Shown here: positions 955 through 5,605 of the stretch, piece by piece | How the letters are laid out: each line of letters opens with the position of its first letter | Numbering within the stretch: the first letter of the stretch is position 1 | Virus record (IMG/VR): IMGVR_UViG_2681813274_000009 | DNA: 5,767 bases | Reading direction: 5' to 3' (one strand) | Origin: a virus | Lineage: Duplodnaviria; Heunggongvirae; Uroviricota; Caudoviricetes | Program-made: the position numbers and the translations under genes | The notes under the pieces: generated by a model | What the model saw: the letters and a program-made list of their open reading frames with translations, nothing else | What the model was told of the DNA's origin: nothing | Databases searched by the model: none

Positions 955-1319
955 TTACTTCACAACTCCCGGAAAGCTGACATTTGAACGCCAGCTATCC
1001 CAGTTAAACGTCACCCACCGACAACCGTTCATGGTCATGCGGTCCATAATCCTCTCACCAAGAAGCGTGCTCATTGCGGCATGATTCAGGTTTGTTAACA
1101 TCCCGACACTGCACAGTGATGCTGTCCGGCGATCAATTATCTGGTGCAATACCACCTGCTCGTTTTTCGTCTCCCGCTGAATGCCTATTTCATCCAGGAC
1201 CAGCAAATCAACCCCGCAAAGCTCCTGTAAAAATTTTTCACCGGATTTGCCGTTGTCGTAGCTGTCATGCAACACGCTCATGACATCAGACTCGGTGACG
1301 ATAATCACGCTGCGCCCCT
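955..1319 (-). CDS. DnaC-family helicase loader (phage-encoded DnaC paralogue, Rac YdaV-like); C-terminal about 121 aa visible, 5' end hidden in the N-run
   Basis: The translation GRSVIIVTESDVMSVLHDSYDNGKSGEKFLQELCGVDLLVLDEIGIQRETKNEQVVLHQIIDRRTASLCSVGMLTNLNHAAMSTLLGERIMDRMTMNGCRWVTFNWDSWRSNVSF aligns by eye with the C-terminal half of E. coli DnaC as I recall it (Walker B LLV(I)DEIG, MLTN sensor, LLGERVMDRM, WVIFNWDSYRS). The Walker A region would lie in the masked 1320-1892 segment. Stop at 955-957. Confidence 0.85.
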
Positions 1320-1892
1320 NNNNNNNNNNNNNNNNNNNNNNNNNNNNNNNNNNNNNNNNNNNNNNNNNNNNNNNNNNNNNNNNNNNNNNNNNNNNNNNNN
1401 NNNNNNNNNNNNNNNNNNNNNNNNNNNNNNNNNNNNNNNNNNNNNNNNNNNNNNNNNNNNNNNNNNNNNNNNNNNNNNNNNNNNNNNNNNNNNNNNNNNN
1501 NNNNNNNNNNNNNNNNNNNNNNNNNNNNNNNNNNNNNNNNNNNNNNNNNNNNNNNNNNNNNNNNNNNNNNNNNNNNNNNNNNNNNNNNNNNNNNNCCNNN
1601 NNNNNNNNNNNNNNNNNNNNNNNNNNNNNNNNNNNNNNNNNNNNNNNNNNNNNNNNNNNNNNNNNNNNNNNNNNNNNNNNNNNNNNNNNNNNNNNNNNNN
1701 NNNNNNNNNNNNNNNNNNNNNNNNNNNNNNNNNNNNNNNNNNNNNNNNNNNNNNNNNNNNNNNNNNNNNNNNNNNNNNNNNNNNNNNNNNNNNNNNNNNN
1801 NNNNNNNNNNNNNNNNNNNNNNNNNNNNNNNNNNNNNNNNNNNNNNNNNNNNNNNNNNNNNNNNNNNNNNNNNNNNNNNNNNNNNNNNNNNN
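1320..1892. other. Masked or unknown sequence (573 nt N-run with 'cc' at 1596-1597)
   Basis: Seen directly in the sequence. It hides the 3' end of the O-like gene and the 5' end of the DnaC-like gene, and causes the six-frame track to fuse them into one 644-aa ORF. Confidence 0.95.
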
Positions 1893-2883
1893 CGCTTACC
1901 GGGAGCAACCAGGGGTTTTCAAAATTCCGGTCCGGCCCAAAAAACGTCGTCGCTCGCTGAACAAATTCCGTTCCCGCTTTCCCGGTCGCCGCCAGGTATC
2001 TCGCGTAACGCCTCACACCATCCAGCATGGTCTCTGGTGGCACCCCCTCGCGCAATCTGGCCTTCCAGGCACTGAATGCGGATTTCTTCGGGTTTGCCCC
2101 GGCACGCAACGGGTATTCCCGCCAGACCTGTTCGAACACATCCGGATAATCCACTCGTCCCACAGGCTGCCCGGTGTTTTCCGGGGCTACCCGATCGGCT
2201 TCCCGCTGAATGGCGGAATCGGCTTCAGGCTGCTGCAGTTGGAGTGATTGCTCCGGCCTTGCGGTCATCACCTGCTGCACAGCGCCCGAATCGGCTTTCA
2301 GCGCATACGCTGAATCGGCTTCCGGTGTCGAGCCTGCTGGCTGACCAGGATTGACGGTCTGAACATCCCCTGCCTGGTTCGTGGCGTTTTTTACGCCATG
2401 GACCATAGTGTTTTGATCTTCTTTATCTGTATCTTTATCTGTATCTGTCGTGACTCGTCGTGACATGTGCGTGACATTTCGTGACGCGCCGTGACAATCG
2501 CCATTTTGTTCCCGCTTTCTTTCCCTCTCTCGCTGCGCCCTCTTGCGCTCTGCAGGAGATTTTGCGGTTTGCGAAATATTGCCGTTGTCCTCTTTAAGCA
2601 CCTGGCGTTTTTCCCATCCAGTGATTAAATCACCATCAAGTACCCGCCCCTGCATCGTCTGCAAAATTGAATCAATTACCTCTTCTGTCACGTCGAGCGC
2701 ACTTGCCAAATCTTCTGTCGTGACATCAATGTGACCTCGCGTGACATTTCGTGACGCGCTCACCAGGAGGTGGATATACACTGCCATCACTGTTGCAATT
2801 GGCTGCCCTGACACCCTGGCAATTGTTCGCCACTTAGGGTCATTTGGCATGTCATGCCATAATCTGAGCCAGGCGTTAGCCAT
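1893..2883 (-). CDS. Phage replication initiator / replisome organiser (lambda O-like role); 3' end hidden in the N-run
   Basis: Open frame from ATG 2881-2883 (MANAWLRLWHDMPNDPKWRTIARVSG...; GAGGTGA SD just upstream; the track starts at GTG 2889) into the N-run. It lies immediately upstream of the DnaC-like loader and downstream of the CII-like gene, as O/P do in lambdoid phages. It contains internal iteron clusters and a basic linker (KRAQRERERKRE). The visible C-terminal region reads YPDVFEQVWREYPLRAGANPKKSAFSAWKARL...GTEFVQRATTFF. Confidence 0.65.
2421..2444. repeat. Perfect tandem duplication of a 12-bp AT-rich unit (ctttatctgtat x2), flanking iteron cluster B
   Basis: 2421-2432 and 2433-2444 are identical. 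The local stretch 2408-2446 is AT-rich and immediately adjacent to the phased CGTGAC repeats, the expected arrangement for an origin unwinding element. Confidence 0.6.
2448..2495. repeat. Iteron cluster B: five direct CGTGAC repeats with helical phasing (candidate phage ori)
   Basis: CGTGAC at 2449, 2459, 2470, 2480 and 2490 (spacings 10, 11, 10, 10 bp), inside the O-like coding sequence. Includes an exact 21-bp repeat (2469-2489) shared with cluster A. Confidence 0.65.
2685..2760. repeat. Iteron cluster A: four phased (C/T)GTGAC repeats plus one inverted copy
   Basis: CGTGAC at 2719, 2740 and 2750 and TGTGAC at 2730 (spacings 11, 10, 10 bp). An inverted copy GTCACG lies at 2687-2692. The exact 21-mer gcgtgacatttcgtgacgcgc at 2739-2759 recurs at 2469-2489. 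Confidence 0.6.
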
Positions 2884-2954
2884 ACTCACCTCTTCTGATA
2901 CCGAATCTTTTTACTCACGAGTTGCCGGGAGCGATTCGATATGGCTATTGTCAG

Positions 2955-3380
2955 TCAATGTACTGCCACAGCATTTCCTGCCGGGCCACCACGGTTCATC
3001 TGATTGAAACCGGCGATTGCCACTGCGACAAAATCATCAGCGTCTCTCACCAGTCGTTCATGCGTCTCCACCAGTTCCCGAAAATAAGCTGAACTGTGGC
3101 TGCGCATTCGAGCCACCAGCGGAGGTGGCATTGCCCTTTCGATCGCAGGTAACAACGCCTGAATTTTTTCAACAGCGTCAGGGGTGTCTTTATCCAGCCA
3201 ACGGAAAATCTTTTGGGTGTTGAGATAAAGCGTGTTGTGCTTGCTGTCGTTATGCAGAACCGGAAACGTCATTCCCAGTTCGAAATAAACCCTGGTTATT
3301 TCAGCTGCCGGAACTTTTTCACCGTCCGGATGCGCCCAGGCTTTCATCGCCATGCGGATGTGTTCATGCTTGATTTTCAT
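2955..3380 (-). CDS. ydaT: YdaT-family protein (CII-like regulator in Rac-type prophages), 141 aa
   Basis: ATG at 3378-3380 overlaps the stop of the upstream Cro-like gene (ATGA overlap). The N-terminus MKIKHEHI... and the position between the Cro-like gene and the replication genes match my recollection of Rac YdaT. Family call is from memory, not a search. Confidence 0.6.
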   Translation of the reverse strand: MKIKHEHIRMAMKAWAHPDGEKVPAAEITRVYFELGMTFPVLHNDSKHNTLYLNTQKIFRWLDKDTPDAVEKIQALLPAIERAMPPPLVARMRSHSSAYFRELVETHERLVRDADDFVAVAIAGFNQMNRGGPAGNAVAVH

Positions 3381-3640
3381 GAATCAACCCCCGCCGATGG
3401 TTGTGTGTTAGCCTGAAACTCAGCAGGCAAGCCGTCAGTTGGGTTGGGGTAGGTTTTACTGTCAATCTCATGTGGGGTCACCACCCATCCCGTTGCTTCA
3501 CACCAACGTAATATTTTTTCTCCTGTAAGTTTTGCACGCCCCGTTATAACGTGGCTGACCATCCCTTGGGATGCGCCAACAATCTCAGCAAATGAACTCT
3601 GGGTTATATGAAAATGATGCAAATATTCTCCAAGATTCAT
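3377..3640 (-). CDS. ydaS: Cro-like HTH regulator, YdaS family, 87 aa
   Basis: Preferred start is ATG 3638-3640 (MNLGEYLHHFHITQSSFAEIVGASQGMVSHVITGRAKLTGEKILRWCEATGWVVTPHEI...), with AGGGCGG upstream. The track ORF extends further 5' through the N-run to 3763, which I consider an artefact. It is divergent from the repressor gene. HTH motif (SQGMVSHVITG) and the TPHE motif typical of YdaS/Cro-like proteins. Confidence 0.7.
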   Translation of the reverse strand: MNLGEYLHHFHITQSSFAEIVGASQGMVSHVITGRAKLTGEKILRWCEATGWVVTPHEIDSKTYPNPTDGLPAEFQANTQPSAGVDS

Positions 3641-3762
3641 AATCCGCCCTATGTGATGTGTTACCAATGCATAATTAATAGCACTGTTATTTTTAAAAGT
3701 AAATAGTGATACTATTTCAAAGTGATTAGCAATCTTATTAGAATNNNNNNNNNAGAAAATCA
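3641..3762. promoter_or_regulatory. Divergent OR-like control region with operator palindromes and candidate promoters
   Basis: Perfect 15-bp palindrome aatagtGATactatt at 3702-3716 and related site aatagcACTgttatt at 3677-3691 (centres 25 bp apart). Candidate plus-strand promoter TTCAAA (3716-3721) - 17 bp - TAGAAT (3739-3744), placing the transcription start in the masked 3745-3753 run, close to the repressor start codon. The 120-bp AT-rich spacer lies between divergent repressor and Cro-like genes. Confidence 0.5.
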
Positions 3763-4248
3763 TTGTCAGACACCGACCTCAACGCCGCCAGAAGACTGAA
3801 AGAAATCTGGATGGCAAAGAAATCTCAGTTGGGATTGACTCAGGAACGTGCGGCGGAAATTATGGGGTTTTCAACACAAGGGGCGGTAAGTCACTACCTA
3901 AATGGTCAAACCCCACTAAACCTTGAGGCTGTTCTAAAGTTTGCTGGCTTACTGAAAGTTCCCCCTGAGTCAATCAGGCCAGACATGGTAGATTTGCTGC
4001 AAATTGCAAGGATGTATTGTCGAGAACCACAGCAAGATAACATAGTCGCATTACCAGCAGACACAGAACAAACAGAGGATGAACTACCGTTTGCCGTAGA
4101 GCCGATGGAACGAGATTTAATCCATACGTTCAGAGCTTTTCCGAAAGAAGATCAAGAACACATGCTTCAGGAGATGAAAGATAAAAAAGAATCAATGGAT
4201 CGTACGGTTGCGCGGTGGTTAGCTGCACAAAAAGGCCGTCGCGCCTAA
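3763..4248 (+). CDS. XRE-family HTH transcriptional repressor (prophage repressor / RacR- or PaaR-like), 161 aa, no visible S24 peptidase domain
   Basis: N-terminal HTH (LTQERAAEIMGFSTQGAVSHYLNGQTPLNLEAVLKFAGLLKV) and an acidic C-terminal region. The start is uncertain: TTG 3763 follows the N-run directly with a weak SD, and ATG 3811 is an alternative. Stop at 4246-4248. Located where cI sits in lambdoid phages. Confidence 0.75.
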   Translation: MSDTDLNAARRLKEIWMAKKSQLGLTQERAAEIMGFSTQGAVSHYLNGQTPLNLEAVLKFAGLLKVPPESIRPDMVDLLQIARMYCREPQQDNIVALPADTEQTEDELPFAVEPMERDLIHTFRAFPKEDQEHMLQEMKDKKESMDRTVARWLAAQKGRRA

Positions 4249-4267
4249 ATCAGAGGAGATATGTAAA

Positions 4268-4462
4268 ATGAGTACAGTCCTTTCCCCAATGGTTTCAGAA
4301 TTTGAGACAGTTGAGCAAGAAAATAGTTACAACGAATGGCTGCGGGCCAAAGTAGCAGCAAGCCTCGCGGATCCCCGCCCGGCGATTCCGCATGATGAGG
4401 TAATGGCGGAAATGGAACAAATTATTGCCCAAATTGCTGCTGCAACTCACAGAGGTGAATAA
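4268..4462 (+). CDS. paaA: Small antitoxin, PaaA2-like (partner of ParE-family toxin), 64 aa
   Basis: GGAG SD 9 nt upstream of ATG 4268. Stop TAA 4460-4462 overlaps the toxin ATG by 1 nt (TAATG). The sequence MSTVLSPMVSEFETVEQENSYNEWLRAKVAASLADPRPAIPHDEV matches my recollection of the intrinsically disordered PaaA2 antitoxin of E. coli O157 prophages. Recalled, not searched. Confidence 0.6.
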   Translation: MSTVLSPMVSEFETVEQENSYNEWLRAKVAASLADPRPAIPHDEVMAEMEQIIAQIAAATHRGE

Positions 4463-4777
4463 TGTTACCCGTTTTATGGCTACCATCTGCTCGTGATGAT
4501 TTGCGCCAGATCGTAGCCTACATAGCTAAAGAAAATCCCGCGGCAGCACGCAGAATGAAAATTCGAATTGAAACATCCGTTTTGCCGCTCACAGAGCATC
4601 CTTACCTGTNNNNNNNNNNNNNNNNNNNNNNNNNNNNNNNNNNNNNNNNNNNNNCTTGGTCTTCGTGAAATTGTAACTCATCCTAACTACATCATCCTTT
4701 ACCGAGTAACAGCATCAAGCATAGAAGTAGTAAATATTGTGCATTCTCGAAGACAGTATCCAGGCAAAAACAGTTAA
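4462..4777 (+). CDS. parE: ParE/RelE-family type II toxin (ParE2-like), interrupted by a 45-nt N-run with a frame mismatch across it
   Basis: N-terminal part 4462-4609 (MLPVLWLPSARDDLRQIVAYIAKENPAAARRMKIRIETSVLPLTEHPYL) and C-terminal part 4655-4774 (LGLREIVTHPNYIILYRVTASSIEVVNIVHSRRQYPGKNS) both show ParE/RelE hallmarks (DL..I..YIA..NP.AA; Y.I.YRV....IEVV.I.H.RR). The two parts are in different frames relative to the 45-N run. Stop at 4775-4777. Confidence 0.7.
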
Positions 4778-4792
4778 TTATTCCCGCCGACA

Positions 4793-4833
4793 GAACCACC
4801 NNNNNNNNNNNNNNNNNNNTAGGGTGGTTTTTT
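4793..4833 (+). terminator. Probable rho-independent terminator downstream of the toxin gene (stem partly masked)
   Basis: CCACC (4796-4800) and GGTGG (4823-4827) are complementary arms, followed by TTTTTT (4828-4833). The loop or extended stem lies in the N-run 4801-4819. Confidence 0.4.
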
Positions 4834-4851: not shown

Positions 4852-4894
4852 AATAGCGATGCTATTTACATCAAAAAAAAATAATGATGCTATT
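4852..4894 (+). promoter_or_regulatory. OL-like operator pair with a candidate early-left promoter
   Basis: Perfect palindrome aatagcGATgctatt at 4852-4866 and related site aataatGATgctatt at 4880-4894, same consensus as the OR sites. Candidate promoter TTTACA (4865-4870) - 17 bp - TGCTAT (4888-4893) overlaps both sites. The -10 is weak (3/6). Confidence 0.45.
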
Positions 4895-5075
4895 GTTTCA
4901 GGCGTCAACCCACCCCGCCCCACAGAATGCAGGGCAATACTTCGAGTTACCAGACAGTGGTCAGGGGTTAAGTAGCCAGCCCGAGGCGTAAGAACATGAC
5001 GGCAGGGTTCAATCTTTAACTATGCAGCAGGTTTTTTGTTCCGCCACCCCGGCGTTAAGGGGAAATGAGGTCAGC

Positions 5076-5228
5076 ATGGATACTATCGATCTTGGCAACA
5101 ACGAATCTCTGGTGTGCGGCGTGTTCCCTAACCAGGATGGAACGTTTACCGCCATGACGTATACCAAAAGCAAAACGTTTAAAACCGAATCTGGCGCGCG
5201 TTGCTGGTTAGCCAGAAACACTGACTGA
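5076..5228 (+). CDS. Small hypothetical protein (50 aa), first gene of the putative early-left operon
   Basis: ATG 5076 has GAGG 5 nt upstream. The track's ATG 5022 has no SD. Protein MDTIDLGNNESLVCGVFPNQDGTFTAMTYTKSKTFKTESGARCWLARNTD. Its position resembles ydaG/ydaF of Rac, but I cannot confirm identity. Confidence 0.5.
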   Translation: MDTIDLGNNESLVCGVFPNQDGTFTAMTYTKSKTFKTESGARCWLARNTD

Positions 5229-5239
5229 TGAGGCTGACG

Positions 5240-5605
5240 ATGGAATTTAAAGATTTACCGTCTGATGTACAGAAAACAGCAGCTCATACATTGCATTCTG
5301 TGCTGCGAGAAATCGGGAAAGATATTGCAAGCGAGCCAGCAAAAGATCTGGCCCGGAAAATCAAGACCGCTTTCGTTGAGCTTTATAATGTTGGCACTGA
5401 CTCTGAAACTGTCGAGACCAAGACCGTAAGTTCACCAATATTCTCACTTGAGCCAAGCGTATTATCAGGTGAAATATGCACCGAGATTTCCAGCGAACTG
5501 CTTCCGGTAATACGAGAAGCAATTCGCCGTCGCGGTTTGGATGGAAGTTATGATCATGACGTTCTGCAAGTTCTCAGGACAATGGTGACTTCACTGGGGA
5601 TTTGA
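5240..5605 (+). CDS. Hypothetical protein (121 aa; 125 aa if started at ATG 5228)
   Basis: ATG 5240 has GAGG (5230-5233) 6 nt upstream. The alternative ATG 5228 overlaps the upstream stop (TGATG). Stop at 5603-5605. No recognisable motif; sequence MEFKDLPSDVQKTAAHTLHSVLREIGKDIASEPAKDLARKIKTAF... Confidence 0.55.
   Translation: MEFKDLPSDVQKTAAHTLHSVLREIGKDIASEPAKDLARKIKTAFVELYNVGTDSETVETKTVSSPIFSLEPSVLSGEICTEISSELLPVIREAIRRRGLDGSYDHDVLQVLRTMVTSLGI

What the first reader, a model, noticed from the sequence alone, without database searches (positions are those of the whole stretch)
3763..4777. Repressor-antitoxin-toxin operon (PaaR/PaaA/ParE-like) at the rexAB position of a prophage immunity region
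Three plus-strand genes are tightly linked: the HTH repressor ends 20 nt before the antitoxin, and the antitoxin stop overlaps the toxin start (TAATG). A terminator follows, and OL-like operators lie beyond it. The toxin-antitoxin pair would therefore be expressed from the lysogenic repressor transcript, as rexAB is in lambda. The HTH protein is the only repressor candidate at the cI position, so it may act as both immunity repressor and module regulator. This suggests an addiction or phage-exclusion role in the lysogen. The family is likely already described, so the novelty is the architecture, not the proteins.
Basis: partly seen in the sequence, partly recalled or inferred. Interest (0 to 1): 0.6.

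Follow-up and report, generated by a model that had tools for sequence, protein, structure and literature searches.

The report
Known PaaR-PaaA-ParE prophage immunity operon
This is a repressor, antitoxin and toxin operon at the immunity switch of a decayed lambda-like prophage; the same layout was worked out experimentally in E. coli O157:H7, so it is a new variant of an ordinary, published system.

Summary
Three plus-strand genes are packed together: an HTH repressor, a PaaA antitoxin (4268-4462) and a ParE toxin (4462-4777). A 19-nt gap separates the first two and TAATG joins the last two. A terminator follows, then two operator palindromes that match three in the repressor/cro intergenic region.

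Two corrections are needed. The repressor's real ATG lies inside the N run 3745-3753, and TTG 3763 is an internal codon. The toxin is out of frame across the N run 4610-4654 as given, but the N runs do not keep length. In 99.9%-identical public loci the gene is an intact 96-aa ORF.

It is the paaR2-paaA2-parE2 / ydaS-ydaT immunity region of prophage CP-933P (Jurenas 2021, PMC8630535). That paper showed PaaR2 to be the CI analogue, and showed PL/OL beyond the TA pair and addiction.

What differs here is the repressor. It shares only its C-terminal 44-64 residues with PaaR2 and the second O157:H7 copy. Its N-terminal domain resembles lambda CI, and it has its own operators (AATAGC-N3-GCTATT). 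I file it as a new immunity-type member of a known kind, of low interest.

The parts
3745..4248 (+). PaaR-like immunity repressor, 166 aa in unmasked relatives. The ATG is hidden in the N run 3745-3753; the visible ORF begins at TTG 3763, an internal Leu codon.
   Evidence: Identity to WP_001343764-type proteins in L001 and L012-L019. Pfam HTH_3 E 8e-9. N-terminal domain versus lambda CI N-terminal domain, PDB 3kz3 E 1.3e-8. C-terminal 44 aa 52% identical to PaaR2, E 4e-15. C-terminal 64 aa 56% identical to the second O157:H7 copy, E 6e-23. C-terminal match to the DicA model NF007257 E 7e-8 and to K-12 DicA E 2e-6. No S24 peptidase domain.
4268..4462 (+). PaaA-family antitoxin, 64 aa, no DNA-binding domain.
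   Evidence: PF21217 PaaA2 E 3e-23. PDB 3zbe/5cw7 PaaA2 E 1.4e-23. NCBIfam NF050103 E 3e-27. GAGGAG Shine-Dalgarno 8 nt upstream.
4462..4777 (+). ParE-family toxin, 96 aa in unmasked relatives. In the window it is interrupted by the N run 4610-4654, which stands for 20 nt.
   Evidence: Start overlaps the PaaA stop (TAATG). PF05016 E 1.8e-17. PDB 5cw7_B ParE2 E 6.7e-37. Intact in L001, L006 and L012-L018; frameshifted in L019.
4792..4833 (+). Intrinsic terminator closing the repressor-antitoxin-toxin operon (loop masked).
   Evidence: Arms GAACCACC / GGTGGTT followed by T6. The unmasked relative folds at -15.1 kcal/mol, z = -2.6. Inverted repeat I3.
3677..3739 (.). OR-like operator cluster. Three 15-bp palindromes AATAGC-N3-GCTATT at 3677-3691 (1 mismatch), 3702-3716 (2 mismatches) and 3725-3739 (3 mismatches).
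   Evidence: Conserved at the same place in L001 and L002 (same repressor N-terminal domain) and absent in L003 and L004 (other N-terminal domains).
3716..3744 (+). PRM-like promoter, TTCAAA-17-TAGAAT. In relatives its -10 ends 7 nt before the repressor ATG, so the mRNA is probably leaderless.
   Evidence: Unmasked sequence TAGAATTGGATGTATGAAA. Leaderless paaR2 is shown in PMC8630535.
3675..3703 (-). PR-like promoter for ydaS-ydaT, TTTACT-17-TATTAA, overlapped by the first two operators.
   Evidence: My own reading of the sequence. It was not listed by the scan, which requires T at position 6 of the -10.
4852..4894 (.). OL-like operators. Two palindromes at 4852-4866 (0 mismatches) and 4880-4894 (2 mismatches).
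   Evidence: Conserved in L001 and L002 with 25-bp spacing. The immunity-type-specific segment is seen in alignment A1.
4865..4896 (+). PL-like promoter, -35 TTTACA and -10 TATTGT. The spacer is 17 nt in A6 relatives but 20 nt here because of the A9 run 4873-4881.
   Evidence: Sequence reading. Analogous to PL933P in PMC8630535.
3377..3640 (-). YdaS/Cro-like HTH regulator, 87 aa, divergent from the repressor.
   Evidence: HTH_3 E 4e-4. phrog_35 transcriptional repressor E 8e-17. 100% identical to the L001 copy.
2955..3380 (-). YdaT, a CII-like activator, 141 aa.
   Evidence: PF06254 E 5e-9. PDB 3c4r E 4e-79 and 8bt1 E 3e-70. phrog_163 CII-like activator E 3e-40.
3370..3387 (.). Exact YdaT recognition palindrome TTGATT-N6-AATCAA at the ydaS/ydaT junction, the PRE-like position.
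   Evidence: 0.06 expected by chance. The motif is as published in PMC9986795 (abstract). The same site is present in L003 and L004.
5076..5228 (+). ydfA-like DUF1391 gene, the first gene of the PL-driven early-left operon.
   Evidence: PF07151 E 1.3e-28. Same position in L001-L004 and in K-12 Qin.

Best explanation
The window holds the immunity switch of a decayed lambdoid (Qin/Rac/CP-933P-type) prophage, with a PaaA-ParE toxin-antitoxin pair carried on the repressor transcript.

1. The 166-aa repressor joins a lambda-CI-like HTH domain to a PaaR/DicA-type C-terminal domain. It binds three AATAGC-N3-GCTATT palindromes between itself and the Cro-like ydaS gene, and two more beyond the operon.
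2. This binding shuts PR (ydaS-ydaT-replication genes) and PL (ydfA and onward). The repressor keeps itself transcribed from a PRM-like promoter as a probably leaderless mRNA.
3. That mRNA runs on through paaA and the translationally coupled parE to the terminator at 4792-4833.
4. PaaA has no DNA-binding domain and only neutralises ParE. Control of the TA pair is therefore delegated to the prophage switch.
5. YdaT, acting at the TTGATT-N6-AATCAA site at 3370-3387, offers a second, CII/PRE-like route into the operon.
6. If the locus is lost or replaced, the labile PaaA decays and ParE poisons the cell. The module thus acts as an addiction device that preserves the immunity region.

Shown here: gene identities, spacing, operator distribution, terminator and the YdaT site. 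Taken by homology from CP-933P experiments: co-transcription, repression, leaderless translation, PaaA lability and addiction.
For: - Protein identities.
- Tight linkage and TAATG overlap.
- Operators are confined to the OR- and OL-like regions. They co-vary with the repressor N-terminal domain across four immunity types.
- The PRM-like promoter has its -10 ending 7 nt before the ATG.
- Terminator. No + strand terminator lies inside the operon.
- Exact YdaT site.
- The same gene order is found in E. coli O104:H4, O157:H7, ATCC 25922 and phage Evi.
- Experiments on the CP-933P homologue: PMC8630535.
- Near-identical copies survive in heavily IS1-eroded prophage remnants.
Against: - Nothing in the window tests transcription, toxicity or repression directly.
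- The repressor's DNA-binding domain is unrelated in sequence to PaaR2, so operator occupancy and PRM activation are inferred from geometry only.
- Only two OL sites were found, against three in CP-933P.
- The PL spacer is 20 nt here, so PL may be crippled.
- The toxin and the repressor start cannot be read in the window itself because of the masks.
- One near-identical genome (L019) has a frameshifted parE.
- In CP-933P no ParE2 activity was detected in either switch state. Addiction has been shown only on plasmids.
Confidence: 0.85

Rival explanations
1. The TA pair is a lysogen-expressed phage-exclusion (abortive-infection) module, functionally like rexAB. Infection by another phage would free ParE and abort the infection.
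For: - It occupies the same position and transcript logic as lambda rexAB, between the repressor and PL (lambda layout as described in PMC8630535).
- It is expressed in the lysogenic state in CP-933P.
Against: - None of the three proteins matches a PADLOC defence model.
- There is no similarity to RexA or RexB.
- The published phenotype is post-segregational killing, and no ParE2 release was detected in either switch state.
- This role would not exclude addiction.
Confidence: 0.12
2. PaaA-ParE is an autonomous two-gene TA cassette that merely inserted next to the repressor and is transcribed from its own promoter inside the repressor gene. The HTH protein would regulate only the prophage.
For: - A promoter-like site TTGACT-17-AATTAT lies at 3835-3863.
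- The authors of PMC8630535 consider that the TA pair inserted into the immunity region.
Against: - That site lies at the 5' end of the repressor gene, so it would still co-transcribe most of it. The count of promoter-like sites equals chance (3 found versus 3.1 expected).
- The 19-nt gap leaves no room for a promoter.
- PaaA lacks any DNA-binding domain.
- The operon structure and PaaR2 control were shown for the homologue.
Confidence: 0.08
3. The module is an inert relic. The prophage is decayed, and the toxin or its control is no longer functional in this lineage.
For: - The carrier loci are roughly 10-kb remnants cut by IS1.
- The PL spacer is expanded to 19-20 nt.
- parE is frameshifted in L019.
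- As printed, the window's toxin halves are out of frame.
Against: - The frame break is a masking artefact.
- Repressor, PaaA and ParE are intact in 7 of 8 complete genomes read, and the loci are 99.9% identical.
- The exact PaaA sequence recurs in thousands of assemblies.
- Operators and the YdaT site are intact.
Confidence: 0.1

Closest known systems
paaR2-paaA2-parE2 / ydaS-ydaT immunity region of cryptic prophage CP-933P, E. coli O157:H7 (Hallez 2010; Jurenas 2021, PMC8630535). The same type is seen here in ATCC 25922 (L004) and phage Evi (L020).
   Same: - Identical gene order and orientation: ydaT, ydaS, divergent promoters, repressor, paaA, parE, terminator, PL/OL, DUF1391 gene.
- PaaA is 75% identical and ParE 61% identical. 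YdaT is 77% identical, with the same TTGATT-N6-AATCAA site.
- The repressor's C-terminal 44 aa are 52% identical.
- The repressor lacks an S24 peptidase domain.
- The -10 is placed for a leaderless repressor mRNA.
   Different: - The repressor N-terminal DNA-binding domain is unrelated to PaaR2 and instead resembles lambda CI.
- The repressor is 166 aa rather than 123 aa.
- YdaS is only 26% identical.
- The operators are AATAGC-N3-GCTATT rather than the GTTTAGTAA-type repeats, which implies a different immunity specificity.
- Two OL sites were detected rather than three.
- The PaaA C-terminal tail differs.
Second O157:H7 copy (L003). It is presumably the CP-933M homologue mentioned in PMC8630535; I did not verify this.
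   Same: - Same architecture.
- Closer TA pair: PaaA 77% and ParE 78% identical.
- Repressor C-terminal 64 aa 56% identical.
   Different: - A different repressor N-terminal domain, a different Cro-like protein (36% identical), and different operators.
Lambda cI-rexA-rexB with OR/OL
   Same: - The repressor N-terminal domain is homologous to the lambda CI N-terminal domain (E 1e-8, about 40% identity over 72 aa).
- Three graded operators are arranged OR1/OR2/OR3-like around divergent promoters.
- Accessory genes ride on the repressor transcript, with a terminator and then PL/OL.
- The repressor mRNA is leaderless.
   Different: - No S24/LexA-type autocleavage domain.
- The cargo is a ParE toxin and PaaA antitoxin, not RexA/RexB.
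- Operators are 15 bp with a different sequence.
- CII is replaced by YdaT.
DicA-DicC switch of E. coli K-12 cryptic prophage Qin
   Same: - Carrier genomes hold the element between the same flanking gene families as Qin (the site assignment rests on my knowledge of the K-12 map).
- The repressor C-terminal domain is related to DicA.
- The downstream genes ydfA ... dicB are the same.
   Different: - Qin has no TA pair between dicA and ydfA.
- The DicA model score is far below its cut-off (32 bits versus 101).
- The N-terminal domain is not aligned.

Membership tests
PaaR-PaaA-ParE three-component TA system | PaaA-family antitoxin: short, with no DNA-binding domain | tested here: met
   PF21217 at 81.9 bits against a cut-off of 27. 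PaaA2 PDB 3zbe E 1.4e-23. No HTH or RHH hit.
PaaR-PaaA-ParE three-component TA system | ParE-family toxin homologous to ParE2, directly downstream of and coupled to the antitoxin | tested here: met
   PF05016 at 64.1 bits against a cut-off of 23. PDB 5cw7_B E 6.7e-37. TAATG overlap. The sequence was completed from 99.9%-identical loci because 20 nt are masked in the window.
PaaR-PaaA-ParE three-component TA system | Third, upstream HTH regulator gene in the same operon | tested here: met
   Same strand, 19-nt gap, and no + strand terminator-like site between the genes. Co-transcription itself was not measured.
PaaR-PaaA-ParE three-component TA system | Regulator homologous to PaaR2 over its C-terminal domain | tested here: met
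   52% identity over 44 aa, E 4e-15. 56% over 64 aa to the second O157:H7 copy, E 6e-23.
PaaR-PaaA-ParE three-component TA system | Regulator homologous to PaaR2 over its DNA-binding N-terminal domain | tested here: not met
   No alignment outside the C-terminus. The N-terminal domain matches lambda CI instead.
PaaR-PaaA-ParE three-component TA system | Embedded in a lambdoid immunity region opposite ydaS-ydaT, with operators at OR- and OL-like positions | tested here: met
PaaR-PaaA-ParE three-component TA system | Toxicity, neutralisation, Clp-dependent antitoxin decay, and addiction | not testable with these tools
   Known only for the CP-933P homologue.
Lambda CI / LexA-type (S24) phage repressors | Lambda-type HTH N-terminal domain | tested here: met
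   PDB 3kz3, 1lmb and 3bdn, E 1e-8 to 3e-7, over residues 4-76.
Lambda CI / LexA-type (S24) phage repressors | C-terminal S24 peptidase domain for RecA-stimulated self-cleavage | tested here: not met
   Only HTH_3 and HTH_31 were found in Pfam. The PDB alignments stop at about residue 85. The C-terminus is of PaaR/DicA type.
DicA repressor subfamily (NCBIfam NF007257) | Full-length match above the curated cut-off | tested here: not met
   32.4 bits against a cut-off of 101. Only model positions 74-130 align. BLASTP against K-12 DicA gives 29% identity over 51 aa.
Known anti-phage defence systems (PADLOC) / Rex exclusion | Sequence match of any of the three proteins to a defence-system model | tested here: not met
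   No hits at E <= 0.01. The resemblance to rexAB is positional only.

The most novel reading that the evidence does not exclude
The most novel reading left open has two parts.

1. The repressor is a natural chimera: a lambda-CI-type DNA-binding domain on a PaaR/DicA-type oligomerisation domain. It would define a third, uncharacterised immunity specificity of the PaaR-PaaA-ParE switch.
2. In the IS1-eroded lineage that carries it, the TA pair, with the neighbouring restriction-modification pair, would be what keeps the roughly 10-kb remnant from deletion. Meanwhile the toxic early-left operon (ydfA...dicB) would be being silenced, or phase-varied, by expansion of a poly-A tract (A6 to A9) in the PL spacer.
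Probability: 0.25. Interest if true: 0.35.

Novelty: new member of a known kind. Interest (0 to 1): 0.15.

Why it matters
The practical value is mainly in annotation. RefSeq labels these genes as a generic HTH protein, RelB and RelE/ParE, but they form a complete, published type of prophage switch with a toxin-antitoxin pair as passenger.

This variant adds one small point. The published work called PaaR2 a CI analogue "despite lacking sequence similarity". Here a member of the same family carries a DNA-binding domain with direct sequence similarity to lambda CI. Its operators co-vary with that domain across four immunity types. This supports the modular, heteroimmune evolution the authors proposed.

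It does not open a new question by itself.

Tried and rejected
- An exact 52-nt pattern in genome contigs gave no match. A protein-seeded scan of genome contigs with the repressor also found no relative. The source and its species range therefore could not be named from that collection.
- Accession numbers of the carrier genomes were not found in the paper library. "Shigella-like" stays an inference from IS1 load and genome size.
- tblastn of the repressor against 50,697 phage records found no close homologue; the best hit was lambda cI at 31%. PaaA was found in only one phage, Evi, which is of the PaaR2 type.
- Rfam at E <= 1 gave only chance-level hits. There are no tRNAs.
- I tested the conserved roughly 170-nt leader between PL and the ydfA-like gene as a structured RNA. 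z = +0.8 and there are no compensatory pairs, so I rejected this.
- PADLOC gave no defence-system match.
- I considered that the toxin is a pseudogene because its halves are in different frames. I rejected this because the N run replaces 20 nt, not 45.

Full report
**What is in the window**

The ORF table and sequence show three plus-strand ORFs.
- An HTH protein, read from TTG 3763 to the stop at 4248.
- A 64-aa ORF at 4268-4462.
- A toxin-like ORF that starts at ATG 4462 and whose last part ends at 4777.

The gap between the first two is 19 nt and holds a GAGGAG Shine-Dalgarno sequence. The second stop and the third start overlap as TAATG.

The window contains five N runs: 1320-1595, 1598-1892, 3745-3753, 4610-4654 and 4801-4819. 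Seven IMG/VR contigs and eight complete chromosomes are 99.9-100% identical outside the masks. They show that the N runs do not keep length. The true stretches are 13 nt for the 9 N, 20 nt for the 45 N, 1 nt for the 19 N, and 462 nt for the 573-nt stretch 1320-1892 (two N runs around a retained CC). This has three consequences.
- The repressor really begins at an ATG hidden in 3745-3753. The protein is 166 aa (MKRKSLSDTDL...), and TTG 3763 is an internal codon.
- The two toxin halves look out of frame in the window, but they form one intact 96-aa ORF.
- The "644-aa ORF" at 955-2889 is two genes.

**Identity of the proteins**

- The 64-aa protein is a PaaA antitoxin. Evidence: Pfam PF21217 E 3e-23, PaaA2 structure 3zbe E 1.4e-23, and NCBIfam NF050103. 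It has no DNA-binding domain.
- The toxin is a ParE. Evidence: PF05016 E 1.8e-17 and ParE2 of the PaaA2-ParE2 complex 5cw7, E 6.7e-37.
- The repressor is modular.
  - Residues 4-76 align with the lambda CI N-terminal domain (3kz3 E 1.3e-8).
  - The last 44-64 residues align with PaaR2 (52% identity, E 4e-15) and with the second O157:H7 copy (56%, E 6e-23).
  - More weakly, the C-terminus aligns with that of DicA.
  - There is no S24 peptidase domain.
- On the other strand lie a Cro-like HTH protein (3377-3640; phrog_35) and YdaT (2955-3380; PDB 3c4r E 4e-79 and 8bt1 E 3e-70; phrog_163 "CII-like activator").

**Regulatory DNA**

The palindrome AATAGC-N3-GCTATT, allowing up to 3 mismatches, occurs five times in the window and nowhere else. 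The sites are at 3677, 3702 and 3725, between the divergent repressor and cro-like genes, and at 4852 and 4880, just after the operon (6 of 200 shuffles give five hits, and none of those would be expected to cluster this way).

The mismatch counts rise 1, 2, 3 from the PR side to the PRM side. The geometry is lambda-like.
- Site 1 overlaps a PR-like -10.
- Site 2 abuts the -35 of a PRM-like promoter, TTCAAA-17-TAGAAT.
- Site 3 fills that promoter's spacer.

In the unmasked relatives the -10 ends 7 nt before the repressor ATG and there is no Shine-Dalgarno sequence. This points to a leaderless mRNA, as shown for paaR2 and lambda cI.

A hairpin plus T6 at 4792-4833 folds at -15.1 kcal/mol, z = -2.6, in the unmasked form. 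No + strand terminator-like site lies within the operon.

The exact YdaT recognition motif TTGATT-N6-AATCAA (PMC9986795) sits at 3370-3387, on the ydaS/ydaT junction. Chance expectation is 0.06.

**Comparison across immunity types**

I compared E. coli loci with the same gene order: L001 (96% DNA identity), O104:H4 L002, O157:H7 L003, and ATCC 25922 L004. L004 carries bona fide PaaR2 (MQKKE...), PaaA2 and ParE2.
- YdaT, PaaA, ParE and the repressor C-terminus are conserved: 77-87%, 75-100%, 61-93%, and 52-56% (L003, L004) respectively.
- The repressor N-terminal domain, the Cro-like protein and the operator segments are swapped as a set.
- The AATAGC-type sites are present at both positions in L001 and L002 and absent in L003 and L004. 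L004 shows the GTTTAGT-type repeats reported for CP-933P.

This is the classical pattern of heteroimmune lambdoid cassettes.

**How it most likely works**

The mechanism is taken by homology from CP-933P, for which the literature reports the following (Jurenas 2021, PMC8630535; Hallez 2010, as cited there).
- paaR2-paaA2-parE2 is an operon.
- PaaR2 is the CI analogue. It binds the intergenic operators, represses PR and PL, and at low level stimulates PRM.
- YdaS acts like Cro.
- YdaT activates a PRE-like promoter.
- paaR2 is leaderless.
- PaaA2 is Clp-labile.
- The locus stabilises an unstable plasmid.

Applied here, the repressor holds PR and PL off and transcribes itself together with PaaA and ParE. 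Loss or replacement of the region would free ParE, so the module would be addictive. All of this is inferred for this allele, not shown.

**Context**

- The exact PaaA sequence is extremely common in public assemblies (listed in 6355 index blocks).
- In eight complete chromosomes the locus is a remnant of roughly 10 kb, cut by IS1. It lies between a mannitol-dehydrogenase-family gene and ynfEFGH-dmsD-clcB-mlc-like genes. From my knowledge of the K-12 map, this is the Qin site.
- A BsuBI/PstI-type restriction-modification pair sits beside it.
- No lysis or structural genes lie within 10 kb.
- Only 2 of 5426 complete E. coli genomes carry this allele at 99% or more, and 842 carry some PaaA-like gene.

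**Verdict**

- The claim that the architecture is novel is not supported, because it is published.
- What is new is a member with a lambda-CI-like DNA-binding domain and its own operators.
- Interest is low.

Noticed in passing
window 4873-4881: A poly-A run lies inside the PL-like promoter spacer, between the two OL palindromes. It is A9 here but A6, A7, A8 or A9 in loci that are otherwise 99.9% identical. In several pairs it is the only difference. A6 gives the 25-bp operator spacing seen at OR and a 17-nt spacer (TTTACA-17-TATTGT); A9 gives 20 nt. This could be promoter decay, phase variation or homopolymer sequencing error.
   Followed up: partly
window 1320-1892, 3745-3753, 4610-4654, 4801-4819: The N runs do not preserve the length of what they replace: 573 versus 462 nt, 9 versus 13, 45 versus 20, and 19 versus 1. 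Reading frames across them are therefore meaningless.
   Followed up: yes
window 955-2889 (-): The apparent 644-aa ORF is an artefact of the mask. Relatives have an O-like replication gene (354 aa, no Pfam hit) followed by a DnaC/IstB-like ATPase (248 aa).
   Followed up: partly
window 2459-2746: CGTGACA occurs six times (five on the + strand, one on the - strand) in two clusters inside the 5' part of the O-like gene, against 0.69 expected. These are iteron-like repeats and possibly the prophage origin, as in lambda O.
   Followed up: no
L012-L019 (20-kb loci around the same module): The carrier chromosomes (4.5-5.0 Mb, many IS1 copies) hold only a remnant of roughly 10 kb at the Qin-like site. 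A BsuBI/PstI-type restriction enzyme and an N6 methyltransferase sit next to the replication genes. A Rha/Ash gene and dicB are separated off by IS1 copies.
   Followed up: partly
L019 10195-10485: parE carries a frameshift in one of eight otherwise near-identical complete genomes, while paaA and the repressor stay intact.
   Followed up: no
window 4905-5075: A leader of roughly 170 nt between PL and the ydfA-like gene is conserved across all four immunity types, but most of it is missing in K-12 Qin. It shows no excess folding energy or covariation. Its function is unknown.
   Followed up: yes
window 5228-5605 (+): A 121-125-aa ORF follows the DUF1391 gene. It has no Pfam hit but a full-length match to phrog_33007, of unknown function. 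It takes the place of ydfB/ydfC in other loci.
   Followed up: no
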